56,609 nt of DNA from Dendronephthya gigantea (GCF_004324835.1 NW_021163190.1:319242-375850); one strand, 5' to 3'; shown: positions 24,989-55,487, numbered from the stretch's first letter. Made by a program: numbers and translations. Notes: generated by a model from the sequence alone, not told the origin.

Positions 24989-25500
24989 CGCAGTAGGGAA
25001 CAGCGCAGTAGGGAACAGCGCAGTGGGGAACAGCGCAGTAGGGGACAGCGCAGTGGGGAACAGCGCAGTAGGGGACAGCGCAGTAGGGAACAGCGCAGTA
25101 GGATACAGCGCAGTAGGATACAGCGCAGTAGGGAACAGCGCAGTAGGGAACAGCGCAGTAGGGAACAGCGCAGTAGGGAACAGCGCAGTTGGGAACAGCG
25201 CAGTAGGGGACAGCGCAGTAGGGAACAGCGCAGTAGGGAACAGCGCAGTGGGGAACAGCGCAGTAGGGGACAGCGCAGTAGGGAACAGCGCAGTAGGGAA
25301 CAGCGCAGTAGGGAACAGCGCAGTAGGGAACAGCGCAGTAGGGAACAGCGCAGTAGGGAACAGCGCAGTTGGGAACAGCGCAGCAGGGAACAGCGCAGCA
25401 GGGAACAGCGCAGCAGGGAACAGCGCAGCAGGGAACAGCGCAGTAGGGAACAGCGCAGTAGGGAACAGCGCAGTAGGGAACAGCGCAGTAGGGAACAGCG
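24989..25500 (+). repeat. 15-bp minisatellite (gcgcagtagggaaca), about 34 copies
   Basis: Copy A has a single copy of the motif at the orthologous site (~13530). Confidence 0.9.
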
Positions 25501-29630: not shown

Positions 29631-30240
29631 GTCTAGAACTGTCTAGAACTGATAGAGCTATCCAGTAGAAATAAAGTTAGTTTAGTTTAGGTTTCCTCCT
29701 GTAGTAACACTGGATCAATAAGAGATGATCCTTACTGGACCTCTAGGAAGAACAGTTTAGAACTGATAGAGCTATCCAGTATAAATAAAGTTAGTTTAGT
29801 TTAGGTTTCCTCCTGTAGTAACACTGGATCAATAAGAGATGTTCCTTACTGGACCTCTAGGAAGATCAGTTTAGAACTGATAGAACTATCCAGTATAAAT
29901 AAAGTTAGTTTAGTTTAGGTTTCCTCCTGTAGTAACACTGGATCAATAAGAGATGATCCTTACTGGACCTCTAGGAAGAACAGTTTAGAACTGATAGAAC
30001 TATCCAGTATAAATAAAGTTAGTTTAGTTTAGGTTTCCTCCTGTAGTAACACTGGATCAATAAGAGATGATCCTTACTGGACCTCTAGGAAGAACAGTTT
30101 AGAACTGATAGAGCTATCCAGTATAAATAAAGTTAGTTTAGTTTAGGTTTCCTCCTGTGGTAACACTGGATCAATTACTGGACCTCTAGGAAAAACAGTT
30201 TAGAACTGATAGAGCTATCCAGTATAAATAAAGTTGGTTT
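29631..30240 (+). repeat. 114-bp satellite, about 5.4 copies
   Basis: Period counted as 114. Unit: cagtttagaactgatagagctatccagtataaataaagttagtttagtttaggtttcctcctgtagtaacactggatcaataagagatgatccttactggacctctaggaagaa. Confidence 0.9.
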
Positions 30241-30510
30241 ACCATAATTGGAGTAAGTACTCTGTGGGGTTGCCTGTCGCTTGCGACCAAGTTTATAAAT
30301 AAATAAATAAGTTCAGGTTTCCTCCTGTAGTAACCTGGATCAATAATAGATGATTGTCAAAAAGGTTTCTTTCATGGAAATACCCAGCGGCCGGTTACAT
30401 AAAACTCTTAACTTCATTTTCAGCGATTAAATCTAAGTTAACCGGCAAATGTACACTCTTCTTTGGGAATTCTAGCCAGCGCTAAAAGTTAGCTATCGTT
30501 TTAACAATCT

Positions 30511-30751
30511 GGGCCTGGTTGTATCAAGCCCGTTTAGCTTAAACGGTGAATAAGTTTAAAATAGAAAGCAAGTCTATCGTTTTATTCAACAAGCAAACTA
30601 AATGTTTTTAACCTTAATACAAAGATACTGTTTACAACTACATATTCAGTGCATAATATTCAAGTTGAGTCATTCAAGAGAGATGTAAGAGTGTTATTTA
30701 ATTTTGACTTATCCGCTGTTTAAGCTAAACGGGCTTGATACGACCGGCCCC
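30511..30751. mobile_element. GGCCGGTTGTATC-TIR MITE
   Basis: About 40-bp TIRs; the internal sequence is shared with the other copies. Confidence 0.65.
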
Positions 30752-32105
30752 TGACCAGGTGTTCAATTCAAGAGTTGCATGTTTGGACAGGATATGCAAC
30801 ATATGGCCCACGTTAAAATGCATAAGCCGTGAATATAGGCACTTAATATTAACAACAAAATGTTGGGCGATCTTTTCCATGCACGGCTGAACGAAAGCCT
30901 TCGCAGGAAGACAGCAACGCTTGCATGTAGTTTTACGATTCTTTTAAACTATGAATGTTGTTGTCACTTGTTAGAGCAGCCATGCAATGCAGCTTCATAT
31001 ATATAAACAAATCGATCTGATTTGCTTTCAACTCGCAGTAAAAGTTACAAGAGCAGCTCATGGGTATCAGGAAAGGTCGAAAGATTGCGACAAACGATTG
31101 AAGTTTGCATTTAAAGCGATTAATCTGCTTTCCTAGAAGACGATACAGCGATTATTATATTTTTAAAAACAGTTTGTATTAATTTCTTTGGCGGGAAAAG
31201 TATTTGTATGTAAACACGCGCATATTAGCCACAATTTGCGAGTCTCAGAAATTCGTTTAGAATACGGAATTTTGCATTCAAACAATTGAAACAAACTAAA
31301 ATATATTTGCCGCCGAATAAATAGAACTAGCTTTGCAACTGAGCGAGGAGGACTAACGAGTAACGAGCAAGTTCCTTTAAGTTCGTTCCACGAACCACTA
31401 GTGTATGGCGCGTTTACATTTGTCGGATATTTGAACAAAGTGTCTTTCATATATATAATAAACTCGCGTAACCTTGGCTAAATGAATTATGCTATACCCG
31501 TAATCTACAATAACAACAACAAACTCATTCAAATCGCAAACACCATAAATCCTGTGGTTCATAGCACGAGTTCTTTGGTGTATCGACATGACACGATGTT
31601 TGAAGTGTTTTCATACGATACACGCAATAACATCGGTTATAATTTCACAACACAGTGATTTTCAATCAAAATACCTCAGATAAACCGCCTGAACGCCTTC
31701 CAGCCGTCGGGAACAACTCCGAAGCATCTATTAGACGTATTTCAATAAAATATCCCGGTCGCTTACCTTAAATAGTGGTTGATTTTCGAAACAGGCATCT
31801 CTAATGAACTCTGATCCCCATTACACGTCTTCAAGCGATTTGTCTCGTCATGCAAATTTCGTCTTTTATACTTTTAGTTAATTACATACCAGAAGCTACG
31901 GGAAGTCAACGTTGATTGACAAATGGCTCGCAAATGATGACAGATTGCTCTAAGAGCGTATATCCCGTCAATGAGTTAACACGCGTCGTTGGTGAATTGC
32001 CAAGTTGTGGAAATTCAAAAAGGTGAAAGGCTATTATAAAGACGTGATTGTCGCATTTCTCGACCACATACACTACTGAGCTGTTGATGATTAAACGTTT
32101 ACGTT

Positions 32106-32412
32106 TTCTCCTGTAGTAACACTGGATATTGAAGAGATGATCCTTACTGGACGTCTAGGAAGAACAGTTTAGAACTGATAGAGCTATCCAGTATAAATAA
32201 AGTTAGTTTAGTTTAGGTTTCCTCCTGTAGTAACACTGGATCAATAAGAGTTGATCCTTACTGGACCTCTAGGAAGAACAGTTTAGAACTGATAGAGCTA
32301 TCCAGTATAAATAAAGTTAGTTTAGTTTAGGTTTCCTCCTGTAGTAACACTGGATCAATAAGAGATGATCCTAGCTAAACCTCTAGGAAGAGCTATATCC
32401 AGTATAAATATT
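32106..32412 (+). repeat. 114-bp satellite, about 2.7 copies (left arm of an inverted pair)
   Basis: Same unit. Confidence 0.9.
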
Positions 32413-32794
32413 GTTGTGATTAGTTTTAAGTGCTCAAGTAGGTGACAAAGTCTTTAAACAGTTTAGCAATGCAAATTTTTAGCGGAAAAGGTTTATCATT
32501 TTCTGTCCATAAAACACCAGAAAGGCTGCGCGTTTCCTTTGCTGTGCAATCGTGTTTAGCCTCTTTGCGTTCTGACGGAGAAGGGAAATTCCTAGCTTTA
32601 TACTTCCATATTTGACAAGTTCCTAACCGACCCAGAAACGTCATTTTTTTGTTCTTGCGTTATAACATTGAAAACGAAATTGATCTGACGTTTATTAGTT
32701 GACTGCTAGTGGTTTTCAAATCACTGAAATTGACATTCGGATATGATTAATCGGCTTAGAGTAGAGAAGATATATATTAGATTAACCGCATTAG

Positions 32795-33222
32795 AGGTTC
32801 GGTAAGGATCATCTCTTATTGATCCAGTGTTACTACAGGAGGAAACCTAAACTAAACTAACTTTATTTATGCTGGATAACTCTATCAGTTCTAAACTGTT
32901 CTTCCTAGAGGTCCAGTAAGGATCATCTCTTATTGATCCAATGTTACTACAGGAGGAAACCTAAACTAAACTAACTTTATTTATACTGGATAACTCTATC
33001 AGTTCTAAACTGTTCTTTCTAGAGGTCCAGTAAGGATCAACTCTTATTGATCCAGTGTTACTACAGGAGGAAACCTAAACTAAACTAACTTTATTTATAC
33101 TGGATAGCTTTATCAGTTCTAAACTGTTCTTCCTAGAGGTCCAGTAAGGATCATCTCTTATTGATCCAGTGTTACTACAGGATGAAACCTAAACTAAACT
33201 AACTTTATCTATACTGTTATAA
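32795..33222 (-). repeat. 114-bp satellite, about 3.8 copies in inverted orientation (right arm)
   Basis: Reverse complement of the unit. Confidence 0.9.
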
Positions 33223-38300: not shown

Positions 38301-40411
38301 TTCTTGATTTTCGTCCGATCAAATACCGCGATAAAGTTGGAGCCAGTCCGTTCTGCGCATGTGCTGTATCAGACAACTCATCTGCGAACGAAGGTGACAA
38401 TCTTGTTGAATTGTTTTCGTATATGCCACCATCTTGACCACGGATACCTTCAAAGACTCAAAACTAAATGATTCAAAAAAAGGGTTAGTACGTTCAATTC
38501 GATGCTATTTTGAGCTCTTGTTTCAAATTGTCAATGTTTCTGTTGTTCTATGTAGTGCAATTGGTCAGGAATTGTTGGGCATTATCGTTAGGTGCCTTCG
38601 GATATCTTTGTTCGAAGTCATGTAGTGGTTAACATGCAAAACACACCACCCCATTCCAATACCCCATCAACAGAGGGTTCAAATTATATACCAGTTCACT
38701 CAATATTCGAAGCAACCAGTTTAAACCATCACAGGATCAGAGTGTGCCAAACCACGAAAATAGTCAATCGAATATCGAAGAGGATTTTTAAAAAAGGATC
38801 GAGTCTATGCGTCAAAATAATTCAGGAATAATTTTTGTTTATACCGTGAGAAAAACCGAACATTAATTACTACTACAGCGAAATTTGTCCAAAAATTTGA
38901 TTAGGTTTTGAAAAGTTTTATGTGTCTTATATAAATAAATATTACAGTAAAGTCATGTGCAAAGTCGTGATGCAATGTAATGCAATGTGTTTCAATGTTA
39001 TTCAATTATTTTCAAATATGAGAAAAAAATCAGTGCTAAATGTCCTTCAAAATTTCCGCCATTTTTTGTCCAAAGCGCTGATATATAACACGTATATAAT
39101 CGCTTTGGTTTGCAACTTGCACCGGATGCTACATTAGATCCGAGCTTGTCGCGCATGCGCATCGCAAATCGCATTACCGCTGGCATCTAAGCTTGACAGG
39201 TCATCTGTCATCAAGCGCCCTACACAAGGATATTCAAATATATTTAGTTAGACCACCAGGCGAGTTCGACTTCAGAACAAATAATGATATTATTCATGCA
39301 TTGACTACGAAAGTTCTGAAGTCGATATCTAACTATAATACCTATAGTACCTATAGTATAAACCTGAATGAGCTTCCTCTTCACTTGAAACAGCTACTCC
39401 ATCCATTATCGAAGCATCTTTTTAATCTCCACAGCCTCCAATCGCACTCTAGTATCCGCGCTGACTTGTATCTCCAAGTAAGTCCAGTTGATATACATCG
39501 TCATCAGTCATGCGTAGATCACACTCCAGTATTCGTGCTGACGTGTGTCCCCCAAGTCAGTCCAGTCGATATACAACACCACCAGTCGTCTCTTCATCCA
39601 ATGCTCATCGTAGGCTCCAGTTCGCGGGTCTGTCTGCTCGCCAAGTCACCCACTTGTCGTACGCAAATACAAAAATGCTTCTATGTGCCCTTTTCAGGCG
39701 AAAATATTCCGTCGAAAATTAAGTAATCTTAATCAGAAATCAATTTATCGCAACTTATTTCATGAATTGTTGCCATGCAGCCAAATTACCTATGTTTTAA
39801 AAGCAAATCTAACGTACTTGGTTCGTTTTGTTCACTCGAAAACAGACATGCATACACAACAGCAAATTTTCAATTTTGCCGAAATAAATAAATAAACAAG
39901 AACACAAAATAAATAGATTAAACCGTTAACAAAGCGAAATACGTTTTCTTTTTCTTTTTAAAAACTTTTTGTGTCCTCTCTTACAGACGAAAATATTTTA
40001 TAGAAATCTGAAATCGTAATCGAAACCAACAATAAATTTATCCCAACTTTAAGAATTTTTTGTCCGCGCAACCATTTTATTTCAAAACTTTATTTTTTGG
40101 TTCAGTTTTTCATTTATTTAAAAGCAACGTGTCACAGTCACACTCACAAGTTCTCTTCTAAATTCTCATGCATCACGAATTAAGTTTTGAGCCGCTATAA
40201 AAGCGACATAATTTTCCCCCATTCCGCGCCTATTGAATCGAGCATGAAAAATACGAATGAGGGGCCCCTATCATTCGTATTTCTCGTGCCCAAAACACCA
40301 GTTCTTAATCCAGGGTTGGCCAATAAAATGTAAACCGAAAATTGAAGAATAAGGATCGAACAAGCGAGTGAATTATAGATTTATAGTCAATAGACACACG
40401 TTGATAGAAGG

Positions 40412-41000
40412 AAATGAACAACACGTTTTTAGAATGAAATCGAAATGAACAACACGTTTTTAGAATGAAATGAACAACACGTTTTTAGAATGAAATGAAC
40501 AACACGTTTTTAGAATGAAATGAACAAACACGTTTTTAGAACGAAATGAACAACGCGTTTTTAGAACGAAATGAAGAACACGTTTTTAGAATGAAATGAA
40601 CAACACGTTTTTAGAACGAAATGAACAACACGTTTTTAGAATGAAATGAACAATACGTTTTTAGAACGAAATGAACAACACGTTTTTAGAATGAAATGAA
40701 CAACACGTTTTTAGAATGAAATGAACAATACGTTTTTAGAACGAAATGAACAACACGTTTTTAGAATGAAATGAAGAACACGTTTTTAGAATGAAATGAA
40801 CAACACGTTTTTAGAACGAAATGAACAACACGTTTTTAGAACGAAATGAACAACACGTTTTTAGAACGAAATGAACAACACGTTTTTAGAACGAAATGAA
40901 CAACACGTTTTTAGAACGAAATGAACAACACGTTTTTAGAACGAAATGAACGACACGTTTTTAGAACGAAATGAACAACACGTTTTTAGAACGAAATGAA
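40412..41000 (+). repeat. 25-bp satellite (acgtttttagaatgaaatgaacaac), about 23 copies
   Basis: Direct observation. Confidence 0.9.
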
Positions 41001-42040
41001 CTCAATTGAAACATAATTTTGTCGCTTACTATAGCAGCCTTTACGAGGCGAAAACTTGGTCGTAATTTTTGGAATATATTTAGTATTTGCTCACATTTAG
41101 TGAATGACTTGCATACAGCGATTTCATCATCTATAAAAAAATTAAGATCATTAGACATCTGGGTTATAAACTGTATGTTTCTCGGGGTATCATTTGATCT
41201 CATTTCATTGTTTGAGAAACACGGATTATCTTGAAATTCACCCGAGCAAAGAATCAATAAAAACAGATCGAATAATACCTTTTTGCTTTGTTGAGTTCAC
41301 TGCGATTAAAGCTCGACAGGGGACACACGAGTTCTTCAAATTTCGACGCTTTTCCTCGATGATTTTCGCTCTAAAATACAGAGAATTATTAACACTACTA
41401 GTAACGTCTAGTCTTTACCAAAATATAAAAGCAAATTTGAATTTATTATGAGCTTTGATGCGTGTCCCAACCGTAAACGAATGTTGTTTTCAACAAGGAA
41501 TTTTCAACATGCGATTACTTGGTTATTTCTCGCGATAATGGCAATAAAAATATACTGTTAGAAAGCTAAATAAGTCCTCTATCTCGCTACGTAAAAGTTA
41601 AATCGATAAATTCAATATTTAATGCATTACGACATGTTAAACTTGCTGCTTCATTTTAACGAGACAACCTAAATTACTGATTTGAATTAAAACAAAGGAA
41701 TCCATAAGCTACCTCTTTGTGAAATCATAACTTGATCAGTCTGTCCGTTGAACATCTATCCTTTTAAGCTCTTCAGATCCTTAGATATTAGTATTTTCTT
41801 CTGATACTAATACTTTCTTCGCAAGTTTTGTTCCACTTCGACCATCCCGTTGTACTGATTAAAACGAAGCGCTATTCAGAAAGCCTCAAACTTTTATAAC
41901 CTGTTTGAATCTCCCGCCTGGCGCATAAATGAATAATAAAGATGCTTTTCATTGGTCAAATTGCACCAAATTACTTCCTTCGATCCTTCATAGTTTACAA
42001 CAGGGTCATCAGTTGGAATAACAAGTACGATCGTACAATA

Positions 42041-43044: not shown

Positions 43045-43250
43045 CAACAACAAGAAGATAAGCAGCAAAAATTTTATCAAACAGAGCCCTTAAGCCTGTT
43101 TTCCACTGTCGTTTTCTTTTTTTTGGAAGTACGTATAAGGTACGTAAAAGTTTAAAATAGTTTAAATGATACTCGTGAAATGAACGATTGAATAGATGCA
43201 TACTGCATAGGGTATGCAGAACATAAAATATTTTCAGACTTAAACTCCTC

Positions 43251-43490
43251 GGGCCGGTTGTATCAAGCCCGTTTAGCTTAAACGGTGGATAAGTTCAAAA
43301 TAGAAAGCAAGTCTGCCGTTTTATTCAACAAGGGAACAAAATATTTTTGACCTTATTACAAAGATACTGTTTACAACTACATATTCAGTGCATAATATTC
43401 AAGTTGACTCGTTCAAGAGAGATGTAAGAGTGTTATTTAGTTTTGACTTATCCACCGTTTAAGCTAAACGGGCTTGATACAACCGGCCCC
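43251..43490. mobile_element. GGCCGGTTGTATC-TIR MITE
   Basis: As above. Confidence 0.65.
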
Positions 43491-43715
43491 TGAAAAACGG
43501 ATGCCATTGTTAAACTGGTTTTTATTTTTCTATGCGAGGTAGCAGGATCTTTACAACGTTGAAACTACTGTTCTTAAATGTTTGCCTTTGGTTATGTCTT
43601 TTATGCCTTTCGTATATGTTCTTCCTTATTGAACTTCTAAAGGTTTCATATGATTTTTACTCCGTACTTGGGTACGTCAAAAGCCCGAGTGGGCTGACCC
43701 TTATCCAACCAATCA

Positions 43716-43956
43716 GGGGCCGGTTGTATCAGGCCCGTTTAGCTTAAACGGTGGATAAGTCAAAATTAAATAACACTCTTACAACTCTTTTGAATGAGTC
43801 AACTTGAATATTATGCACTGAATATGTAGTTGTAAACAGTATCTTTGTATTAAGGTTAAAAACATTTAGTTCGCTTGTTGAGTAAAACAATAGACTTGCT
43901 TTCTATTTTGAACTTATCCACCGTTTAAGCTAAACGGGCTTGATACAACCAGCCCC
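43716..43956. mobile_element. GGCCGGTTGTATC-TIR MITE (opposite orientation to the 43251 copy)
   Basis: As above. Confidence 0.65.
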
Positions 43957-44682: not shown

Positions 44683-44923
44683 GGGGCCGGTTGTATCAAG
44701 CCCGTTTAACTTAAACGGTGGATAAGTCAAAATTAAATAACACTCTTACAACTCTCTTGAGTGAGTCAACTTGAATATTATGCACTGAATATGTAGTTGT
44801 AAACAGTATCTTTGTATTAAGGTTAAAAACATTTTGTTTGCTTCTTGAATAAAACGATAGACTTGCTTTCTATTTTGAACTTAACCACCGTTTAAGCTAA
44901 ACGGGCTTGATACAACCGGCCCC
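44683..44923. mobile_element. GGCCGGTTGTATC-TIR MITE
   Basis: As above. Confidence 0.65.
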
Positions 44924-45138
44924 AGGGTGATTAATGTTTTCGCCTTATTAATAGCTTTATGATGTCTTAAACCGGTTTTTTAAATTATGGAATGGAATAC
45001 CAGAAATACCTCTCATGCAATCATTATAAAGTTAAGTATATATAATATAGTCAAATTGTTTGAATATTATCAGTTAGCAAATGTATAATAATAGTTTGCG
45101 TGTATTAGAAATAGCCGTTTCATTTTGTATATAGTTAA

Positions 45139-45278
45139 TAGACCTTTTTTATAATGACGTCAAACGCGGAAAGTGTGATCTTACACGAAGTTTGATTAGC
45201 TCGATAGTTTTGTGGAGCCAATCAAATTTCGTGTAACATCAGACTTTCCGCGTTTGACGTCATTATAAGAAAGGTCTA
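45139..45278. mobile_element. Palindromic CRE/CCAAT element, copy 2. TGACGTCA on both arms (45155..45162 and 45255..45262); CCAATC at 45218.
   Basis: Perfect hairpin tagacctttttt ataatgacgtcaaacgcgg ... ccgcgtttgacgtcattataagaaaggtcta. Confidence 0.7.
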
Positions 45279-45400
45279 TTGCACACGCCAGTCACGTCTC
45301 ATGGAAATCAGCAAATGTTGATTGAGACAAGTAATAATAATCTGTTTATTAAAACCAACTTGCAGTATTAAAACTGAATTACATGGTTATATACTCTACC

Positions 45401-46198
45401 CTAATAATTATATTTAACAGTGATAAAATTACTAAATCGTTCTGTATTTGTTTGTAGTTGTCGGCTTCCGTGTTCATGCCTCAAATTATATTCATTGGTA
45501 GAAACGCTAGTCTGTCTTTCAATTGCATCACGAGGGGGGTTAATTGTAACATTATCTTCTTTTAATTTATTTATAAATAATTTGCAAGAACTATCTCTCC
45601 GTGACCATAAAGTTTGGAGTCCAATATGGTTCAGTGCGTTTGCATACGACAAATCTGGGATAATAATACGTAGAGCTCTTTTTTGAATGGATTCGATCAT
45701 GTCCGACTGCTTCTTCGTTAACGCTGACCATGCTGGGTACTCCAAACAAGGCCTAATAAAGGTGGAATATATAGTTACGAGATTCTTGACACTTAGTCTG
45801 GCTTTTTTTAATTGTCGCAAAGCATAAAGCCTAGAATTCGATTTTTTGATGACATAATCAACGTGATCAAACCAAGAGAGATCATCCCTCAACTATACTC
45901 CAAGCAATTTAACCGATTGTACCAATTCACCGTCAATATAGATTGGATTCCCGTACGGGAGTTCATATTGGAGAAAGGATATACTCATATCTTTACACTT
46001 CTTAGAGTTTAATTTCATTCCTCTGGCAGATGCAAACTGGGAAATTTCATTTACGAGAATGGGCATAAGGCTGGGGGAGCAACGGTGAATAACTTCCAGG
46101 GCGCTTGTGTCATCAACATACTTAATTCGCGCGTTCCAATCTTTCAGAAGGGAATTCAACCATGGTCGAGTTCGCCGGAAAACGACTAATTCAACCAT
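45401..46198 (-). pseudogene. Fragment of a non-LTR (LINE) reverse transcriptase, with one in-frame stop
   Basis: Has YVDD (the YXDD motif), then GMKLNSKKCKDM, then ...KLLGV*MRDDLSWFDHVDYVIKKSNSRLYALRQLKK. From my recollection of LINE RTs, the usual consensus there is LGVxIDxxLSWxxHI...RLxxLRxLK. The two listed ORFs are contiguous in one frame across a stop at 45893-95. Confidence 0.7.
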
Positions 46199-46609
46199 GG
46201 TCGAGTTCGCCGGAAAACGACTAATTCGACCATGGTCGAGTTCGCCGGAAAACGACTAACTCGACCATAGTCGAGTTCGCCGGAAAACGACTAATTCGAC
46301 CATGGTCGAGTTCTCCGGAAAACGACTAATTCGACCATGGTCGAGTTCTCCGGAAAACGACTAATTCGACCATGGTCGAGTTCGCCGGAAAACGACTAAT
46401 TGGACCATGGTCGAGTTCTCCGGAAAACGACTAATTGGACCATGGTCGAGTTCTCCGGAAAACGACTAATTGGACCATGGTCGAGTTCTCCGGAAAACGA
46501 CTAATTGGACCATGGTCGAGTTCTCCGGAAAACGACTAATTGGACCATGGTCGAGTTCTCCGGAAAACGACTAATTGGACCATGGTCGAGTTCGCCGGAA
46601 AACGACTAA
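46140..46609 (+). repeat. 35-bp satellite (accatggtcgagttcgccggaaaacgactaattcg), about 13 copies, beginning seamlessly inside the LINE RT sequence
   Basis: The unit read on the minus strand encodes VELVVFRRTRPW, which is the N-terminal peptide of the LINE ORF fragment. Confidence 0.9.
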
Positions 46610-46778
46610 AGGCGGATCTCCACTTACAGCGAAATCGTTCGCCAGCGAAATATTTGCATATTTTCTTTTGAATTTTAACAGCATAAATAAATTAGTTCGA
46701 CTTGACTGTTCTCAATTCAAAAGAAAATATGCAAATATTTCGCTAGCGAACGATTTCGCTGTAAGTGGAAATCCGCCT
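46610..46778. mobile_element. Tourist-like MITE with 3-bp TAA TSD, inserted in the 35-bp satellite
   Basis: TAA at 46607-09 and 46779-81. Removing the element restores the satellite unit cgactaactcgacc. Confidence 0.8.
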
Positions 46779-46832
46779 TAACTCGACCATGGTCGAGTTC
46801 GCCGGAAAACGACTAATTCGACCATGGTCGAG
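46779..46832 (+). repeat. 35-bp satellite, the segment between the MITE and the copia element
   Basis: Same unit. Confidence 0.9.
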
Positions 46833-47154
46833 TGTTAAAGTATGCTCTATTATATTCCAAATATTCCAATATATATGTATCAATCAACTGTAAATAGATT
46901 TAATTTAGATTTATGAGTGATCAAATGATTCCATAGATTCCATAGATGCAAGTGTAGTAAATGTTTCTTTAATGAAAGCCAAATATGGTAACCAAATGTA
47001 AAATGAAATGTTATCCGTCCTAAAGAGATTATCATGTAACCACTTATATATAGATGTAACTTTCCTTGTATACATCAGAGTGAATAAAACTGTGTAACCC
47101 TAAAGTTGTGCTGTGAATATAAAGGAGTGGCAAATGGCTACCCAAAACTCAACA
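46833..47154 (+). repeat. copia 5' LTR
   Basis: About 2 mismatches over 322 bp against the 3' LTR. Confidence 0.9.
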
Positions 47155-47353
47155 GGTTATGGGCCCAGGAGAGCTCTGGTCTTCGATGGAAACGAATCGA
47201 AGTACGAATTATGGGAGGTAAAGTTTTTATCCTTTATGCGGATCCAAAAACTTTACAACTATTTTTGTGCCTAGCAGCGATGAGCGTGAGCTAGATTAGT
47301 CGAAGAATGCCGATGCCTTCGCCGAACTTGTACAGTGTTTAGATGACCGAAGC

Positions 47354-50300
47354 TTGTCCCTAGTCATAAGGGAGGCAAAAGATGAGGGTCGAAAGGCTTT
47401 AACAGTGCTGAGAGAGCACTACCAAGGAATAGGAAAACCCCGAATTATAGCCCTGTACACCGAACTTACTTCACTGAGAAAGGGGGAAAGCGAGTCAACA
47501 ACGGACTACATCATACGAGCGGAGACCGCGGCGACAGCGCTGAAAGCAGCAGAGGAAATAATAAGCGACGGCTTATTAATTGCAATGGTTTTGAAAGGCC
47601 TTCCTAGGAACTATAAAACATTCTCTACTGTGATAATCCAACGAGAAAAGCAGATGACATTCAGCGAATTCAAAATAGCCCTGCGAAACTACGAAGAGAT
47701 TGAAAAGAGTTGCCATGGTACGGAAGGCAAAGACAACGTGATGTATGCCGCCAAGACGAAATTCGACGGAAAATGCTTCAAATGTGATAAGAAAGGTCAT
47801 AAGAGTTCCGAATGTTGGCTAAAGAGCGAAAAATGGTGTGCCAAATGTCGAACCAAGACCCACAATACAAGAGATTGTAGAGCCGCAAAGAAGGACGCAG
47901 CGAAGCTTATCAACGGACAAGTGAAGAATCAAGATTTGGATGAACATTCATTCGCATTTACGTTAAAAGATGGTAAAGGTAGGAGTACGAAGAATTCGAA
48001 GCTTCTCGTGGACACTGGGGCGACCAGCCACATAATTAATGATAGGTCTAGGTTTGTAAGCTTTGACAAGAACTTTGATCCGAACAGTCACTTTATAGAA
48101 CTTGCCGATGGAAGCAAGGCTAACGTAGTTTTAGGGAAGGGAAATGCAATGGTTAAATTGTTTGATGTAAGGGGTAATGTACAAAATCTAATGCTAAGCG
48201 ACGCACTTTATATACCGTCCTACAGTCAAAATATTTTTTCAGTTTCGGCAGAAATAGGTAGAGGAGGATCGGTTGCTTTAGGAGAACAGGTAAGTAAATA
48301 CACTACAGCTGAAGGTCAGGTATTTGAGATAGAAGAGAGAGAGCGTTTGTACTATTTAAATAGTATCTCTTCTTCGTGTAACAATGCTACCTCCATTAAT
48401 GAGTGGCACAGGATTTTAGGCCATTGTAACTTTGGAGATGTGCGTAAATTAGAGCAGGTAGTCAAAGGGATGAAAATCATAGACCACAGCGAGAAAGATT
48501 GTGAAGTATGCATTCAAGGAAAGATGTGTCAGAATAGAAACCGAGAGCCAGATCAGAGAGCTAAAGCACCTTTAGATTTTGTCCACTGTGACTTGGCAGG
48601 GCCAATTGAGCCCGTTGCCAGAGACGGATTTAAATATGCATTGTCTTTTATAGACGATTATACAGGTATCAACATGATATATTTCTTAAAGCGAAAGAGC
48701 GACACTTTAGAAGCCACAGAAAAATTTTTGGCCGATGTTGCGCCTTATGGTAAAGTTAAAAGGATACGAAGCGATAATGGTGGTGAGTTTACGAGTCAAG
48801 AATTTAAATCTCTCTTACGAAAGCAGTCAATAAGACACGAGACGAGTGCCCCGTATTCCCCTCACCAAAATGGAACTGCAGAAAGAGCGTGGCGAAGCCT
48901 TTTTAGCATGGCTAGGTGCTTGCTATTGGAGGCAAAACTACCAAAACGGTTGTGGACCTACGCTGTGATGGCTTCAGCCTACATAAGAAATAGATGCTTC
49001 AACCAACGCTTAGAGAAGACACCATTTGAGGCGTTGACAGGTAAGAAACCAAATTTAAATAATATGCATGTATTCGGCACAACACGCTATGCTTTTTTGC
49101 AGAACACCAAGAAAATAGACGCAAAGAGCCGTAAAGGTATATTTATAGGGTACGACAGAGGTAGCCCATCTTACTTGATATACTATCCGGAATTAGACAA
49201 GATAGAAAAGGTACGTTGTGTCAAATTCATTGACAACTTCCAAGGCAAAGACAATAAACTCAACGATCTTGATGAGTTTGTACCCGCCAGAAAACCTTCG
49301 AGTACTAGCAATGAAAACCCCAAAATGCCGAGTACAGTTGAGGAGAGCTCGAATAATCTCGAAACAATCAGCGAAAATGTAACAAACAACACCGAGGTGG
49401 TTGCCGAGGGAGATAGGTATCCAACAAGAGTTCGCAATAAGCCAAATTATTTCGATCAAAGCAAATTAGATGACACATTAGGTGAGAATGTTAATTACAC
49501 TGTTGATTATTGCTATAGAGTTGCGAACATTCCAGTGTGCTATAAACAAGCACTTGAGTTGCCTGAGGCAAACAAATGGCAAAAGGCAATGGAAATTGAG
49601 ATGAAAGCGTTGACAGATAATGACACTTTTGATTTAGTACCGCGACCTAAGGATAGACAGGTAGTGGGGGCAAAGTGGGTTTACACTATAAAAACAAATC
49701 AAGAGGGAGAGGAAAAATATAAAGCTAGATTTGTAGCGAAAGGGTATTCTCAAGTTTCAGATATAGATTACCAAGAAACGTTTGCACCAACTGCACGCAT
49801 GAGTTCGATCCGAATGTTATTACAACGTGCCGTGCAAAACGACATGATTATTCACCAAATGGATGTGAAAACAGCATACCTTAATGCGCCAATCGACTGC
49901 GAAATATATATAGAACAACCTGAAGGTTTTGAAAAGCGAAATGATAGCGGTGAAACGTTAGTTTGTAAGCTGAAAAAGTCGCTATATGGTCTAAAACAAA
50001 GCGGCAGGAATTGGAATAATCTACTCCATCAATATTTGATTAACGAAAACTTTATTCAATCTCTTGCAGATCCATGTGTGTATGTGCGTACAATAGATGA
50101 TAAACGATGTGTGATCGTAATCGTTTGGGTCGACGATATCATAATCGCCTCGAGTGATTCAAATTCACTACAGAGCGTGAAAAAGTCTCTTAAAGAAAGG
50201 TTTAAAATGACCGACCTAGGGATTCTAAAATGGTTTTTAGGCACTGAATTTCAATGCAGTGAAAACACAATTAAAATGAGTCAAACCCGGTACATTGAAA

Positions 50301-51088
50301 AGATTCTTGAGAAATTCAAAATGACCGATTGTAAGCCAAAGCCGACGCCGTGTGAGTTAGGAGTAGACAAAGTTTTGGAAGTGGAATCTCCTGAAATGGA
50401 GGACCCCGGGCTTTATAGAGCTATAGTAGGTAGTCTCATATATGTAATGACTGGCACTAGGCCAGATCTGTGTTACATCGTGACAAAATTGTCACAGAAA
50501 ATGTCAAAACCAACCCAGGCAGATTTAACTAAGGCAAAGCACGTTTTGAGATATCTAAAAGGTACTTCAAAATTTGGTCTAACGTTCACAAAGTCCATTA
50601 ACCCCCTCATTCTTCAAGGTTTTTGCGATTCAGATTGGGGAGCATCTATCGCAGATAGACGGAGTATAACAGGATACAACTATCAACTAGCGCAAAAGGG
50701 ACCGTTGATATCATGGAAGAGTCGCAAACAGCCGACAGTGGCACTATCCACCTGTGAAGCGGAATATATTGCATTGACAAACGCGATGCAAGAAGCAAAA
50801 TTTCTGAAACAACTCTGCATCGACATGAAGGTAAGTATACATGAAGGTAAGGCTTTCATAAAGATAGATAACCAGGGAGCGATGAATCTGGCGAAGAATC
50901 CTATTCATCATCAGAGAACAAAACATATAGACATCAGGTACCATTTCATTAGGGAAGAAGTGAAGGAAGGACGAGTTAGTTTAGAGTACGTTTCAACAGA
51001 GGAAAATATTGCAGACATATTTACAAAGCCAGCCAGTAAAATAAAATTAGAAAAATTTAAAGAGACCATATTAGGTAAGTATACATAG
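47354..51088 (+). CDS. copia Gag-Pol polyprotein, 1244 aa, uninterrupted
   Basis: CCHC knuckle CFKCDKKGHKSSEC. Protease LVDTGATSH. Integrase HHCC (HRILGHC...CEVC) and D,D,E (HCDLAGP, FIDDYTG, ...PHQNGTAER). RT ...VWVDDIIIA. RNase H DSDWGAS...TGYNY...STCEAEYIAL. Confidence 0.92.
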   Translation: MSLVIREAKDEGRKALTVLREHYQGIGKPRIIALYTELTSLRKGESESTTDYIIRAETAATALKAAEEIISDGLLIAMVLKGLPRNYKTFSTVIIQREKQMTFSEFKIALRNYEEIEKSCHGTEGKDNVMYAAKTKFDGKCFKCDKKGHKSSECWLKSEKWCAKCRTKTHNTRDCRAAKKDAAKLINGQVKNQDLDEHSFAFTLKDGKGRSTKNSKLLVDTGATSHIINDRSRFVSFDKNFDPNSHFIELADGSKANVVLGKGNAMVKLFDVRGNVQNLMLSDALYIPSYSQNIFSVSAEIGRGGSVALGEQVSKYTTAEGQVFEIEERERLYYLNSISSSCNNATSINEWHRILGHCNFGDVRKLEQVVKGMKIIDHSEKDCEVCIQGKMCQNRNREPDQRAKAPLDFVHCDLAGPIEPVARDGFKYALSFIDDYTGINMIYFLKRKSDTLEATEKFLADVAPYGKVKRIRSDNGGEFTSQEFKSLLRKQSIRHETSAPYSPHQNGTAERAWRSLFSMARCLLLEAKLPKRLWTYAVMASAYIRNRCFNQRLEKTPFEALTGKKPNLNNMHVFGTTRYAFLQNTKKIDAKSRKGIFIGYDRGSPSYLIYYPELDKIEKVRCVKFIDNFQGKDNKLNDLDEFVPARKPSSTSNENPKMPSTVEESSNNLETISENVTNNTEVVAEGDRYPTRVRNKPNYFDQSKLDDTLGENVNYTVDYCYRVANIPVCYKQALELPEANKWQKAMEIEMKALTDNDTFDLVPRPKDRQVVGAKWVYTIKTNQEGEEKYKARFVAKGYSQVSDIDYQETFAPTARMSSIRMLLQRAVQNDMIIHQMDVKTAYLNAPIDCEIYIEQPEGFEKRNDSGETLVCKLKKSLYGLKQSGRNWNNLLHQYLINENFIQSLADPCVYVRTIDDKRCVIVIVWVDDIIIASSDSNSLQSVKKSLKERFKMTDLGILKWFLGTEFQCSENTIKMSQTRYIEKILEKFKMTDCKPKPTPCELGVDKVLEVESPEMEDPGLYRAIVGSLIYVMTGTRPDLCYIVTKLSQKMSKPTQADLTKAKHVLRYLKGTSKFGLTFTKSINPLILQGFCDSDWGASIADRRSITGYNYQLAQKGPLISWKSRKQPTVALSTCEAEYIALTNAMQEAKFLKQLCIDMKVSIHEGKAFIKIDNQGAMNLAKNPIHHQRTKHIDIRYHFIREEVKEGRVSLEYVSTEENIADIFTKPASKIKLEKFKETILGKYT

Positions 51089-51184
51089 GTTCATAATTGC
51101 GCATATAATTTTAAAGCGATGGCCCGCCCTGCTGCACGCCATCAAATAAATAATTTACTATAGAACATAAAGAGCAAGTGGGGG

Positions 51185-51506
51185 TGTTAAAGTATGCTCT
51201 ATTATATTCCAAATATTCCAATATATATGTATCAATCAACTGTAAATAGATTTAATTTAGATTTATGAGTGATCAAATGATTCCATAGATTCCATAGATG
51301 CAAGTGTAGTAAATGTTTCTTTAATGAAAGCCAAATATGGTAACCAAATGTAAAATGAAATGTTATCCGCCCTAAAGAGATTATCATGTAACCACTTATA
51401 TATAGATGTAATTTTCCTTGTATACATCAGAGTGAATAAAACTGTGTAACCCTAAAGTTGTGCTGTGAATATAAAGGAGTGGCAAATGGCTACCCAAAAC
51501 TCAACA
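51185..51506 (+). repeat. copia 3' LTR
   Basis: See the 5' LTR. Confidence 0.9.
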
Positions 51507-51775
51507 TCGAGTTCGCCGGAAAACGACTAACTCGACCATGGTCGAGTTCGCCGGAAAACGACTAACTCGACCATGGTCGAGTTCGCCGGAAAACGAAACT
51601 CGACCATGGTCGAGTTCGCAGGAAATCGACTAACTCGACCATGGTCGAGTTCGCCGGAAAAAGACTAATTCAACCATGGTCGAGTTCGCCGGAAAACGAC
51701 TAACTTGACCATGGTCGAGTTCGCCGAAAAACAATATGTCCAATTGGCCGGAAAACGACTAATTCGACCAGGGGA
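51507..51775 (+). repeat. 35-bp satellite continuing 3' of the copia element, about 7.5 copies
   Basis: Same unit. Confidence 0.9.
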
Positions 51776-52437
51776 TGTAATCATCCCACTAATTAATGGG
51801 ATCTATGTTCACTGCGCATGTCAGTCAAATTTGCAACAAGCTTAATTAACAAGCTGGGAGCTCCCTTCTCAAATGTGAATCCTTAAAATTAGGAATTTTG
51901 TAAAAACTATATTAACAACTTGTACTATATATATTACGGAAATCTTTAGGAAAACTGGGAAATATATCAAAAACTTCCATAGAAATCTACAATCTCAAGC
52001 AGCTGGTAAACTTGTTGTTAAAAACAGCTGTTGCTAAGTCAAGTTTATTTATTTTTTTATCGATTTAAAACTCATAAACAAGCCATGAAGCTCATCGCTG
52101 TGTATATATTGAAAGATGAAGATAATTTCAAAAGGTAGGGTTTGTATTTTACCGCATTTCTAACCGCTCAAATTCGTAGGTGATAAAAGTTAATGCCTTG
52201 TAATGTGTGTGAACTTTTCATTTGTAATAAACGATTTCTTTATTAAGTGGTTCTTTGTGCAAATAATGAGCTATAATCCACAGTTTTAATATAAATTGAC
52301 AAGCTACAAGTATGATTTAAAGCTCTGTTAGATTTAAAGCAATCTTTGTTTGCAAAATACGAACTACAGTCGCGGTAAAATGCTTCAAGTATAAAGCTTG
52401 ATATTTGGCTCGGCTTTTGGGCAGTTTGTATTCTTCT

Positions 52438-52680
52438 GGGGCCGGTTGTATCAAGCCCGTTTAGCTTAAACGGTGGATAATAAAGCTCAAAATAGAAAGC
52501 AAGTCTATCGTTTTATTCAACAAGCAAACAAAATGTTTTTAACCTTAATACAAAGATACTGTTTACAACTACATATTCAGTGCATAATATTCAAGTTGAC
52601 TCATTCAAGAGAGATGTAAAAGTGTTATTTAACTTTGACTTATCCACCGTTTAAGCTAAACGGGCTTGATACAACCGGCC
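52438..52680. mobile_element. GGCCGGTTGTATC-TIR MITE
   Basis: As above. Confidence 0.65.
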
Positions 52681-53242
52681 TCAGATCGCTTTTGATAAAG
52701 CCTAATCTTCTCTGAGGGAAAGTTAAGCTTCATTGCAACGCAATTTGCAAAGGCGTAGGTTTAATTTTTGCCTTGGAAACTTGTATGATTACAAACTTTC
52801 CTCAAATCTTTCTGGCTTTAAAATATGTATAGTCAGTGGGCCTCGATTGATACCTTGGAAATTGGCAAGACTTCTCACCGCAATTCTCAATACTTTGGCT
52901 TCAAATTTGGTGAGAAAAAAGCTTTATAAATACTCAACAAAATATGTCTTGCACAAAAGGTCTGAAGCTTGCACACAATCGTCTGAATTAATAACCTTGT
53001 TTATACTTAAGCTTCAAAATGGCCATTTCACAGCTGTCAGATGTGTATGATGAGCTGTCAAAAGATTGTAGAATGCGTATCCGGAAGAAATATTGAACTT
53101 TTTAAAGTTATTCAATAGTTTTCTCTTTGATAGCGATACAGAAATGCACAATTGGCAAGTGTCTATTTGGCCATCTCTGTAAAAGTTGCAATCTTAACAT
53201 TAACTTTAATTTTCATTCCAGGTAATTTTGGCTGACGATATT

Positions 53243-53527
53243 ATGAGGCTGCCAGCACCGTTACGAAGATTCCTTGCTGAATCAGAAGATGAGGTCTACT
53301 TTCTTATCCGCCTGTTGATATTCACCGTCAATGTCATTGCGTGGATATTTTCGATTTTCTTCATATGCATTGGAATATGGATTCTTCAGGAGAAAAATAA
53401 TCTGGGTGTTGACAATTTGAGTTCAGACCCGGCCGCAGTGCTGATTGCGATTGGTACCATATTGTTCCTCATCACCTTCACCGGTTGTATCGGCACTTTG
53501 AGAGAGAATTTGTTTCTTTTGAAAGTG
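53243..53527 (+). CDS. Tetraspanin exon 1 (MRLPAPLRRFLAESEDEVYFLIRLL...TM1...TM2...NLFLLKV), donor GTGAGT
   Basis: Two hydrophobic TM segments. ATG at 53243, in frame. The track ORF begins at a TTG upstream. Confidence 0.7.
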
Positions 53528-53539
53528 GTGAGTCAGTAG

Positions 53540-54350
53540 ACATCTCTTTAATACAGACATCTCTCTAATACAGACATATTTCTAATACAGACATCTTTCT
53601 AATACAGACATCTCTCTAATACAGACACCTTTCTCTAATACAGACATCTCTCTAATACAAACATCTCTCTAATACAGACATCTCTCTAATACAGACATCT
53701 CTCTAATACAGACACCTCTCTAATACAGACATCTCTCTAATACAGACATTTCTCCAATACAGACATCTCTCTAATACAGACATCCCTCTAATACAGACAA
53801 CTCTCTAATACAGACATCTCTCTAATACAGACATCTCTCTAATACAGACATCTCTCTAATACAGACATCTCTCTAATACAGACATCTCTCTTATACAGAC
53901 ATCTCTCTAATACAGGCATCTCTCTAATACAGACATCTCACTAATACAGACACCTCTCTAATACAGACACCTCTTTAATGCAGACATCTCTCTAATACAG
54001 ACACTTCTCTAATACAGACATCTCTCTAATACAGACATCTCTCTAATACAGACATCTCTCTAATACAGACATCTCTCTAATACAGACATCTCTCTAATAC
54101 AGACACTTCTCTAATACAGACATCTCTCTTATACAGACATCTCTTTAATACAGACATCTCTCTAATACAGACACCTCTCTAAAACAGACATCTCTCTAAA
54201 ACAGACATCTCTCTAAAACAGACATCTCTCTAAAACAGACATCTCTCTAATACAGACATCTCTCTAATACAGACATCTCTCTAATTCAGACATCTCTCTA
54301 ATACAGACATCTCTAATACAGACATCTCTAATACAAACATCTTTGAAGAC
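53540..54350 (+). repeat. 17-bp intronic satellite (acagacatctctctaat), about 45 copies, in tetraspanin intron 1
   Basis: Direct observation. Confidence 0.9.
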
Positions 54351-55265: not shown

Positions 55266-55280
55266 GTATTGTACTGTATG

Positions 55281-55487
55281 ATAGAGTTATCCAGTATAAA
55301 TAAATTAGTTTAGTTTAGGTTTCCTCCTGTAGTAACACTGGATCAATAAGAGATGATCCTTACTGGACCTCTAGGAAGAACAGTTTAGAACTGATAGAGT
55401 TATCCAGTATAAATAAAGTTAGTTTAGGTTTCCTCCTGTAGTAACACTGGATCAATAAGAGATGATCCTTACTGTACCTCTAGGAAC
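55281..55487 (+). repeat. 114-bp satellite, about 1.8 copies inside a tetraspanin intron
   Basis: Same unit. Confidence 0.9.

What the first reader, a model, noticed from the sequence alone, without database searches (positions are those of the whole stretch)
46140..51775. A satellite built from a LINE reverse-transcriptase segment, later hit by a Tourist-like MITE and by a copia element
The 35-bp satellite starts with no discontinuity inside the coding sequence of the degraded LINE RT at 45401..46198. Read on the minus strand, the monomer encodes VELVVFRRTRPW, so the satellite arose by tandem amplification of 35 bp of TE coding sequence. The array was then interrupted twice: by a MITE with a TAA TSD at 46610..46778, and by a complete copia at 46833..51506 with TSD TCGAG. 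Removing either insertion restores an exact satellite unit. This shows the order of events (LINE, then satellite, then MITE and copia) at a single locus.
Basis: seen in the sequence. Interest (0 to 1): 0.75.

Follow-up and report, generated by a model that had tools for sequence, protein, structure and literature searches.

The report
Short tandem array beside truncated LINE

Summary
What is confirmed:
- A 35-bp tandem array of about 22 units (772 bp without the insertions) lies at 46153-51775 and nowhere else in the window.
- It is interrupted by a 169-bp inverted-repeat MITE (46610-46778, TAA duplication).
- It is also interrupted by a Ty1/copia element (46833-51506, TCGAG duplication, 322-bp LTRs identical at 320/322).
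- Virtual excision of each insertion restores an exact unit and keeps the 35-bp phase. So the array came first, then the MITE and the copia.

What is not supported: that the array came from LINE coding sequence.
- Reverse-transcriptase homology on the minus strand stops abruptly at the Asn codon at 46156. Against the nearest relative, identity is 58/75 nt below that point and 18/75 nt above it.
- A profile of the LINE family matches positions 171-423 only, and matches the satellite in no frame.
- The relatives encode the conserved GGLPQGTKLGPLLFAVL where the window reads VELVVFRRTRPW.
- No reverse-transcriptase sequence lies beyond the far end of the array.
- The open frame is trivial, because every frame of the array is open for 34 codons.

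The LINE is a 5'-truncated copy that shares only 4 (at most 7) bp, AATT(CAA), with the first unit. This is the microhomology typical of LINE 5' junctions.

Whether the LINE or the array came first is undetermined. The locus is ordinary and of low interest.

The parts
45332..46156 (-). 5'-truncated, dead LINE copy. It keeps the C-terminal part of the reverse transcriptase (from just before the YVDD motif), the C-terminal extension, the 3' UTR and an (ATT)3 tail at 45332-45341. The ORF stop is at 45401-45403 and an internal stop is at 45893-45895.
   Evidence: Pfam RVT_1 (profile positions 135-202 of 205, below the gathering score because only the end of the domain is left) and ALKBH8_N. 117 homologs, best 65% identity. 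The family HMM matches positions 171-423 of 424 at E=1e-102. The 3' UTR core and microsatellite tail are conserved with relatives L001/L002. The full-length relative L005 has ORF1, an Exo_endo_phos endonuclease and RVT_1.
46153..46159 (.). LINE/satellite junction. AATT (46153-46156) is compatible with both sequences. CAA (46157-46159) is the satellite variant and fits the LINE only weakly (Leu where relatives have Val/Ile).
46153..46609 (+). Satellite block 1: 13 units of 35 bp plus 2 bp. Consensus AATTCGACCATGGTCGAGTTCGCCGGAAAACGACT. There are local blocks of identical variants (units 8-12 are identical).
46607..46609 (.). Left copy of the TAA target-site duplication of the MITE.
46610..46778 (.). 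169-bp MITE (here MITE-A) with long terminal inverted repeats (AGGCGGATCTCCACTTACAGCGAAATCG...). There are four other copies in the window.
   Evidence: (inverted pair I4)
46779..46781 (.). Right copy of the TAA target-site duplication of the MITE.
46782..46832 (+). Satellite block 2: the end of unit 14 and the first 18 nt of unit 15.
46828..46832 (.). Left copy of the TCGAG target-site duplication of the copia.
46833..51506 (+). Ty1/copia LTR retrotransposon, 4674 bp. LTRs at 46833-47154 and 51185-51506 (TG...CA). Primer-binding site GGTTATGGGCCCAG at 47155-47168. Polypurine tract at 51169-51184. gag-pol runs from ATG 47134 (inside the 5' LTR) to 51088, broken by a frameshift near 47261-65 and a TAG at 47297-99.
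51507..51511 (.). Right copy of the TCGAG target-site duplication of the copia.
51512..51775 (+). Satellite block 3: the rest of unit 15 and about 7 more units, progressively degenerate (a 33-bp unit, substitutions, and a partial last unit ending ...AATTCGACCAGGG). Most of these units carry the perfect 20-bp palindrome AACTCGACCATGGTCGAGTT.

Best explanation
Two unrelated sequences are juxtaposed here. One is a short 35-bp tandem array of about 22 units. Its unit is a 16-20-bp palindrome, (AA)CTCGACCATGGTCGAG(TT), plus a 15-bp spacer. The other is the 5'-truncated end of a dead LINE copy.

Shown:
- The LINE keeps only its last roughly 825 bp, and its homology to its family stops abruptly at 46156.
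- The array shows no detectable similarity to LINE sequence beyond a 4-7-bp overlap at the junction.
- The MITE and the copia inserted into an array that already existed, and both insertions are clean.

Inferred:
- The contact most likely arose when the LINE cDNA, incompletely copied, was joined to the target by annealing of a few bases (AATT). This is the usual way 5'-truncated LINE inserts are sealed. A later microhomology-mediated deletion could have brought a LINE interior against the array instead.
- The array grew and was locally homogenised by slippage or unequal exchange, which would explain the blocks of identical neighbouring units.
- The copia is the youngest event (LTRs 99.4% identical).

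The open reading frame that runs from the reverse transcriptase into the array is an accident of a repeat that has only one stop per frame per 105 bp.
For: - RT homology boundary. Relatives read ...NGGLPQGTKLGP(L/F)LFAVL(I/V)NSLLKDW(N/S/P)(A/G)RIK(F/Y)VDD. The window reads ...VELVVFRRTRPWLNSLLKDWNARIKYVDD.
- The family HMM aligns from position 171 and finds no hit in the satellite in six frames.
- blastn to three relatives starts at 46156.
- Identity to the nearest relative L005 is 58/75 nt 3' of the junction and 18/75 nt 5' of it.
- The monomer against LINE DNA scores no better than shuffles.
- No RT lies beyond the far end of the array.
- The LINE 3' end is genuine: a conserved UTR core plus a microsatellite tail, as in its relatives. 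The full-length relative has ORF1, an endonuclease and RT.
- Annealing or microhomology 5' junctions and frequent 5' truncation are documented for L2-type and L1 inserts (PMC4245944).
- Clean target-site duplications and phase-exact restoration hold for both the MITE and the copia.
- The array edge next to the LINE is sharp and undegraded (units 1-3 have at most 1 mismatch). The far edge is decayed. This fits a break made inside or against an existing array.
Against: - No target-site duplication for the LINE was found, and no satellite remnant lies to the left of the LINE 3' end. So insertion into the interior of an array would need an accompanying deletion, or insertion exactly at the array edge.
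- A 4-bp overlap is weak evidence on its own.
- The array begins (AATTCAACCATGG) and ends (AATTCGACCAGGG) at the same phase. This would also fit an array born in place between two short direct repeats.
- No second locus of the satellite or second copy of this LINE could be examined, so independence of the satellite from this LINE copy is inferred from lack of similarity, not demonstrated.
Confidence: 0.8

Rival explanations
1. A 35-bp piece of the LINE reverse-transcriptase coding sequence was tandemly amplified in place, so the satellite is LINE-derived and younger than the LINE.
For: The array abuts the RT fragment directly, and the reading frame stays open for 22 codons into the array. Satellites derived from LINE ORF2 are known elsewhere: PROsat, Pvc20 and chicken HinfI/CR1 (PMC9659126).
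Against: The satellite-encoded peptide does not match the near-invariant RT block expected at that position. The family HMM finds nothing in the satellite. DNA identity to the nearest relative drops to random exactly at the junction. No LINE sequence lies on the other side of the array. Each frame of the array is open for 34 codons anyway.
Confidence: 0.03
2. The array was born in place after the LINE inserted, from non-LINE flanking DNA. The LINE's terminal AATTC(AA) served as one of two short direct repeats, 35 bp apart, that primed the first slippage duplication. The order would be LINE then array, but at most 7 of the 35 bp come from the LINE.
For: The array starts and ends in the same phase with the same 13-mer (AATTCRACCATGG / AATTCGACCAGGG). 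The left edge is not degraded. No satellite lies to the left of the LINE. The satellite was not found anywhere else that could be searched.
Against: A coincidence of phase within a few bp is expected in roughly 10% of cases. The right-hand units are more decayed and carry the perfect palindrome, while the LINE-proximal units carry variants that break it. That is the opposite of what is expected if the proximal unit were the founder. No public data from the source species were available, so absence elsewhere means little.
Confidence: 0.15
3. The array is the internal tandem repeat of a larger non-autonomous transposon (for example Helitron/Helentron-like or foldback-like). The LINE, MITE and copia all inserted into that element.
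For: The window holds at least 14 short arrays. Some recur with shared flanks: the 30-bp and 77-bp arrays occur together at two loci, and the 114-bp array occurs at four. This matches the pattern described for Helentron-borne arrays in oyster (PMC7492417). A small hairpin, GGGATGTAATCATCCC followed by ACTAA, sits right at the array's distal end.
Against: The flanks of the 35-bp array have no other copy in the window. No transposon termini were identified. This rival does not exclude the best explanation.
Confidence: 0.15
4. The LINE/satellite junction is an assembly or cloning chimera.
For: The junction happens to form an EcoRI site, GAATTC, at 46152-46157.
Against: The satellite units read TAATTC, not GAATTC, so ligation at an EcoRI site would not give this sequence. 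The array is in perfect phase across two insertions. There is no other sign of misassembly. Read-level data could not be checked.
Confidence: 0.02

Closest known systems
5'-truncated LINE inserts sealed by microhomology (annealing-type 5' junctions of L1 and zebrafish L2-clade elements; Yamaguchi, Kajikawa and Okada 2014, PMC4245944)
   Same: Only the 3' part of the element is present. It has a genuine 3' UTR and a short-repeat tail. The break lies in the middle of the RT. A few bases are shared between the LINE end and the flank.
   Different: No target-site duplication is recognisable. The flank is a tandem array. The event cannot be told apart from a later deletion.
Satellites derived from LINE coding or UTR sequence (PROsat and Pvc20 from L1 ORF2, chicken HinfI/SCR1 from CR1, the common cetacean satellite from the L1 3' end; reviewed in PMC9659126)
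   Same: A tandem array is physically associated with a LINE fragment.
   Different: In those cases the monomer itself is similar to LINE sequence. Here the monomer has no detectable similarity to the LINE beyond a 4-7-bp overlap, so this is not a member of that class.
Nested transposon insertions in tandem arrays used as a relative clock
   Same: Clean target-site duplications and exact restoration of the repeat unit on virtual excision give the order: array first, insertions later. LTR identity dates the copia as recent.
   Different: Nothing unusual. The array is short (772 bp) and lies 1.45 kb upstream of a tetraspanin first exon, not in a large heterochromatic block.
Dispersed short satDNA-like arrays carried by mobile elements in marine invertebrates (oyster Helentron-associated arrays, PMC7492417)
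   Same: The genomic setting is similar: many short arrays per 56 kb, some recurring with shared flanks, among abundant MITEs.
   Different: The 35-bp array itself shows no shared flanks or transposon termini in this window.
Drosophila copia and Ty1-type elements
   Same: 5-bp target duplication, TG...CA LTRs, integrase before reverse transcriptase. The primer-binding site is complementary to the anticodon-stem region (nt 26-39) of initiator tRNA-Met rather than its 3' end, and gag starts inside the 5' LTR.
   Different: This copy has a frameshift and a stop near the start of gag. The host is an unidentified animal whose nearest named LINE relatives are cnidarian.

Membership tests
TE-derived satellite (LINE ORF2-derived) | The monomer is significantly similar to the internal sequence of the parent element | tested here: not met
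   The family HMM against six frames of the satellite gives no hit at E<=10. Local DNA alignment to the window LINE and to relatives L001, L002 and L005 is no better than shuffles. The only match is a 14-mer in L005, reached by 22 of 300 shuffles.
TE-derived satellite (LINE ORF2-derived) | For in-situ amplification of an internal segment, parent sequence continues on both sides of the array | tested here: not met
   No RT homology lies on either strand of 51500-53000.
Satellite DNA in the classical sense | Head-to-tail tandem repeats of one unit | tested here: met
   35-bp period, 13.1 + 1.5 + 7.5 units, 91-97% matches.
Satellite DNA in the classical sense | Long arrays and/or high genomic copy number | not testable with these tools
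   Only 772 bp at one locus in the window. No hit in JGI metagenome contigs, GTDB genome contigs, the paper library or a protein-level search. The source genome is not in any collection available here.
Non-LTR (LINE) retrotransposon, 5'-truncated copy | Reverse transcriptase of the RVT_1 type with the YxDD motif, related to elements that carry an APE endonuclease and ORF1 | tested here: met
   KYVDDT motif. RVT_1 end and ALKBH8_N-like segment. HMM E=1e-102. Relative L005 encodes ORF1, Exo_endo_phos and RVT_1.
Non-LTR (LINE) retrotransposon, 5'-truncated copy | Family-specific 3' UTR ending in a short repeat or A-rich tail | tested here: met
   The conserved core ACCATGTAATTCAG...ACTGC...TGGTTT.ATTAAAC is followed by (ATT)3 here and by (ATTC)5 in L001.
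Non-LTR (LINE) retrotransposon, 5'-truncated copy | Target-site duplication flanking the insert | tested here: inconclusive
   None found by eye between the flank after the tail (CTTGTCTC...) and the flank before the 5' end (...CCATGGTTG). Short or absent duplications are common for this kind of LINE (about 5 bp for ZfL2-1).
Ty1/copia LTR retrotransposon | Direct LTRs with TG...CA ends and a 5-bp target-site duplication | tested here: met
   322-bp LTRs, 320/322 identical, TGTT...AACA, flanked by TCGAG on both sides.
Ty1/copia LTR retrotransposon | Domain order gag - protease - integrase - reverse transcriptase (RVT_2) | tested here: met
   Retrotran_gag_2 at 15-117, gag_pre-integrs at 332-391, rve at 405-503, RVT_2 at 756-1000. 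A protease domain as such was not listed by Pfam.
Ty1/copia LTR retrotransposon | Primer-binding site next to the 5' LTR and polypurine tract next to the 3' LTR | tested here: met
   GGTTATGGGCCCAG at 47155-68 is the complement of nt 26-39 of initiator tRNA-Met, whose sequence is printed in PMC12775451. AAAGAGCAAGTGGGGG lies at 51169-84.
Ty1/copia LTR retrotransposon | Uninterrupted gag-pol reading frame (autonomous copy) | tested here: not met
   Compared with P0118, there is a frameshift near 47261-65 and a TAG at 47297-99.
PIF/Harbinger-type (Tourist-like) MITE | Short, non-coding, multi-copy, with terminal inverted repeats | tested here: met
   169 bp, 72-nt arms 94% complementary. Five copies in the window at 76-92% identity.
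PIF/Harbinger-type (Tourist-like) MITE | 3-bp TWA target-site duplication | tested here: inconclusive
   A perfect TAA/TAA flanks this copy. Other copies show TAA on one side only.
PIF/Harbinger-type (Tourist-like) MITE | Termini shared with an autonomous PIF/Harbinger transposase-encoding element | not tested
   No autonomous partner is in the window.

The most novel reading that the evidence does not exclude
The array was seeded at the LINE's 5' junction. After a 5'-truncated LINE was sealed to the target, its terminal AATTC(AA) and a matching AATTC 35 bp away in the flank acted as the direct repeats for the first slippage duplication. On this reading, a retrotransposition junction gave birth to a new palindrome-containing minisatellite just upstream of a tetraspanin gene.
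Probability: 0.15. Interest if true: 0.35.

Novelty: new member of a known kind. Interest (0 to 1): 0.15.

Why it matters
It matters little beyond annotation. The locus is a clean teaching example of ordering transposon insertions by target-site duplications and virtual excision. It also shows that an open reading frame running from a TE gene into a repeat is not evidence that the repeat is derived from the gene.

Had the LINE-derived origin been true, it would still have joined a list of known LINE-ORF2-derived satellites (PMC9659126). The 35-bp unit is not in any collection or paper that could be searched, so it is at most a new, probably lineage-specific, short tandem repeat family.

Tried and rejected
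- Exact look-up of the window's copia ORF and of the 101-aa 'RT+satellite' ORF in the contig index found nothing on record. The source genome is not in the collections.
- The satellite was scanned in JGI metagenome contigs with a 25-base pattern and with a palindrome-gap-palindrome pattern, and in GTDB genomes. All gave 0 hits.
- A full-text search for five monomer sub-strings gave 0 papers.
- A phmmer search of a 34-aa satellite-encoded peptide against 1.84 billion representatives gave one hit, P0300. It is a 4144-aa bacterial-type repeat protein with a weak 20-aa motif repeated ten times, and I judge it spurious.
- Orthologous tetraspanin loci of two related organisms (L003, L004) align in exon 1 and the intron but not upstream. 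They therefore give no test of whether the array or the LINE is present there.
- I tried to name the organism through the tetraspanin exon, cluster members and assembly accessions. No names were returned. The only named relatives are cnidarian LINE proteins at 41-44% identity and a sea-spider copia at 54%.
- Two copies of a second MITE family flank the region at 44683-44925 and 52436-52684. I considered them as possible ends of a composite element and rejected this: the family has 7 copies in 56 kb, and each copy is itself a complete inverted-repeat element.
- A 14-nt exact match between satellite units 1-2 and the ORF1-end/ORF2-start of the nearest LINE relative is at chance level, and the flanking bases do not match.
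- Hairpin formation by the monomer is only weakly better than shuffles for the perfect-palindrome variant (z=-2.1). It is no better for the commoner variants.
- Rfam and tRNA scans of the window found nothing.
Full report
**Observation.** Tandem Repeats Finder reports a 35-bp array at 46153-46609 (13.1 copies, 97% matches) and again at 51507-51732 (6.5 copies, 91% matches). A search with the consensus AATTCGACCATGGTCGAGTTCGCCGGAAAACGACT, allowing 3 mismatches, finds 19 units. All lie between 46153 and 51701, against 0 expected in shuffles, and none lies elsewhere in the 56.6-kb window. The array therefore starts at 46153, not 46140. It fades out at about 51775, where a last partial unit is still significantly satellite-like (0 of 500 shuffles reach its score).

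**The two insertions.**
- The sequence reads ...GGAAAACGAC[TAA]AGGCGGATCTCC...GGAAATCCGCCT[TAA]CTCGACC.... This is a 169-bp element (46610-46778) with 72-nt inverted arms that are 94% complementary, flanked by TAA.
- The sequence also reads ...GACCATGG[TCGAG]TGTTAAAG...CTCAACA[TCGAG]TTCGCC.... This is a 4674-bp element (46833-51506) flanked by TCGAG.
- Removing each element with one copy of its duplication gives units 14 and 15 with 1 and 0 mismatches to the consensus, and the 35-bp register runs through both sites. This part of the finding is fully confirmed: the array was there before both insertions.

**The MITE.** It has four other copies in the window at 76-92% identity. The perfect TAA duplication fits a PIF/Harbinger-type (Tourist-like) element, but other copies show TAA on one side only and no autonomous partner is available. 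The superfamily assignment is plausible, not proven.

**The copia.**
- Pfam finds copia-type gag, gag-pre-integrase, integrase, then RVT_2.
- The LTRs are 322 bp, TG...CA, and identical at 320/322.
- The 14 nt after the 5' LTR (GGTTATGGGCCCAG) are the exact complement of nt 26-39 of initiator tRNA-Met, whose sequence is printed in PMC12775451. From my own knowledge, this is the 'half-tRNA' priming known from Drosophila copia.
- A polypurine tract precedes the 3' LTR.
- Compared with a 77%-identical relative of 1314 aa (P0118), gag starts at ATG 47134 inside the LTR. The frame is then broken by a frameshift near 47261-65 and a TAG at 47297-99. The element is structurally complete and young, but this copy is not coding-intact.

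**The LINE.**
- The minus strand of 45332-46156 encodes the C-terminal part of a reverse transcriptase...LNSLLKDWNARIKYVDDTS..., with one internal stop (45893-95) and two small gaps.
- It has 117 homologs. The best is 65% identical overall, and one is 86% identical over the junction-proximal 50 residues. The few named ones come from cnidarians.
- A full-length relative (L005) encodes ORF1, an Exo_endo_phos endonuclease and RVT_1.
- The 3' UTR has a core conserved with relatives. It ends in a short microsatellite, (ATT)3 here and (ATTC)5 in L001. So the 3' end of the copy is at about 45332.
- This is a genuine LINE copy that has lost everything 5' of the middle of its RT.

**Is the satellite made of RT sequence?** No, on every test available.
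1. All 14 aligned relatives, and the six closer partial relatives read later, have the strongly conserved block NGGLPQGTKLGP(L/F)LFAVL(I/V) immediately before NSLLKDW. Q, T, K, L, P and F are at least 90% conserved there. The window has STMVELVVFRRTRPWL instead.
2. An HMM built from 13 relatives, without the window sequence, aligns to the window from profile position 171 (the residue before N-S-L-L) to 423 at E=1e-102. With all filters off it finds nothing in any of the six frames of a 12-unit satellite consensus. It also finds nothing on either strand beyond the far end of the array.
3. blastn to three relatives starts at 46156 in each case. Against the nearest one, identity is 58/75 nt on the LINE side of the Asn codon and 18/75 nt on the satellite side, which is random.
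4. Local alignment of the monomer (as a dimer, both strands) to the window's LINE and to the relatives' LINE DNA scores within the range of shuffled monomers.
5. If an internal 35-bp segment had been amplified in place, the rest of the LINE should resume on the other side of the array. It does not.

Because 35 is not a multiple of 3 and the unit has a single TAA/TAG-forming site, every frame of the array is open for exactly 34 codons. Any in-frame neighbour will therefore appear to run on. The ATG at 46198 is simply the CCATGG core of unit 2.

**What the junction is.** The bases AATT (46153-46156) belong equally to the Asn-Ser codons of the LINE and to the start of a satellite unit. The next three, CAA, are a satellite variant also seen in units 2 and 20. 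They give Leu where the relatives have Val/Ile. So the overlap is 4 bp, at most 7. Experimental LINE inserts, especially L2-type, are mostly 5'-truncated and joined through such microhomology or a few extra bases (PMC4245944).

**Scenarios for how the contact arose.**
- The simplest reading is that a truncated LINE cDNA was annealed to a target end lying in or at the edge of an existing array.
- Alternatively, a later microhomology-mediated deletion brought the two together.
- The LINE-side edge of the array is sharp and undegraded, while the distal edge is decayed. This fits a break imposed on an array.
- Against insertion into the interior of an array, no satellite remnant lies to the left of the LINE tail and no target-site duplication is visible.
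- I therefore cannot order the LINE and the array. A model in which the array arose after the LINE from flanking non-LINE DNA, using the LINE's terminal AATTC as one of two direct repeats, remains possible at about 0.15. It is mildly supported by the array beginning and ending in the same phase.
- It is mildly contradicted by the variant pattern. The perfect 20-bp palindrome AACTCGACCATGGTCGAGTT is found in the distal, older-looking units. The LINE-proximal units carry variants that break it.

**What the array is.**
- The unit is a 16-20-bp palindrome plus a 15-bp spacer. The hairpin is only marginally more stable than shuffles, and only in the perfect variant.
- Adjacent identical units (8-12) indicate recent local duplication.
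- The window as a whole is crowded with short arrays of 15, 17, 25, 30, 32, 77 and 114 bp. Several recur at more than one locus with shared flanks. This is the picture described for transposon-borne satDNA-like arrays in oyster (PMC7492417).
- The 35-bp array shows no shared flanks in this window. Whether it is locus-specific or dispersed cannot be decided here, because the source genome is absent from every collection I could query.

**Comparison with known things.** LINE-ORF2-derived satellites exist: PROsat, Pvc20 and chicken HinfI/CR1 (PMC9659126). They are defined by monomer-to-LINE similarity, which fails here, so this is not a member of that class. Every component is a standard kind: a 5'-truncated LINE, a short tandem array, a TAA-duplicating MITE and a Ty1/copia element. 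The nested arrangement is a standard way of ordering events.

**Verdict.** The headline interpretation is wrong, and the chronology is right only for 'array before MITE and copia'. The locus is ordinary. Interest 0.15.

Noticed in passing
window 29635-30241, 32097-32391, 32792-33216, 55279-55486; L003 and L004 (many arrays, e.g. L004 10395-11297): A 114-bp tandem repeat is 92-94% identical to arrays in two related organisms. The orthologous tetraspanin exon in those organisms is only 76-79% identical. So this repeat is far more conserved than coding sequence, or it is a recently active or shared mobile family.
   Followed up: partly
window 10208-10596 + 11835-12325, 18932-19622 + 19890-20077, 2984-3439: A 30-bp array and a 77-bp array occur together at two loci with partly shared flanks, and the 77-bp array occurs a third time. 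This looks like a composite, probably mobile, array-carrying element.
   Followed up: partly
window 43247-43492, 43714-43956, 44683-44925, 52436-52684, 30509-30753, 18640-18885, 11223-11451: A family of about 245-bp MITEs with about 50-nt terminal inverted repeats (GGGGCCGGTTGTATCAAGCCCGTTTAAC...). It has 7 copies in 56 kb at 93-95% identity, and two of them happen to bracket the finding.
   Followed up: partly
window 47134-47172: The copia gag ORF starts inside the 5' LTR and is read through the primer-binding site, which encodes G-Y-G-P-R-R. The same TGYGPRR is kept in the 77%-identical relative P0118. The site is complementary to the anticodon-stem region of initiator tRNA-Met, not to its 3' end.
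   Followed up: partly
window 46155-46168 and 46190-46203; L005 2359-2372: There is a 14-nt exact match (CGACCATGGTTGAA, encoding RPWL) between satellite units 1-2 and the ORF1-end/ORF2-start of the nearest LINE relative. The flanking bases do not match, and 22 of 300 shuffles of the fetched loci give a match at least as long, so it is probably chance.
   Followed up: yes
window 53228-53539 and 53538-54342: The first coding exon of a tetraspanin gene (Pfam Tetraspanin in its homologs, which are 73-88% identical) lies 1.45 kb downstream of the array. It is followed immediately by a 17-bp x 47 array in the intron.
   Followed up: partly
window 45137-45280 and 2169-2315: Another small palindromic element (66-nt arms, 92% complementary) sits just left of the LINE tail, with a second copy at the other end of the window.
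   Followed up: no
window 24984-25502, 40396-41001, 22184-22610: Further minisatellites of 15 bp x 35, 25 bp x 24 and 32 bp x 14. The 15-bp array gives long artefactual ORFs on both strands.
   Followed up: no
window 3449-7827 (minus strand): Two long open frames (1026 aa and 387 aa) lie in a region of raised G+C (46-48% against about 37% elsewhere). This is probably a large coding exon of a host gene with low-complexity sequence.
   Followed up: no
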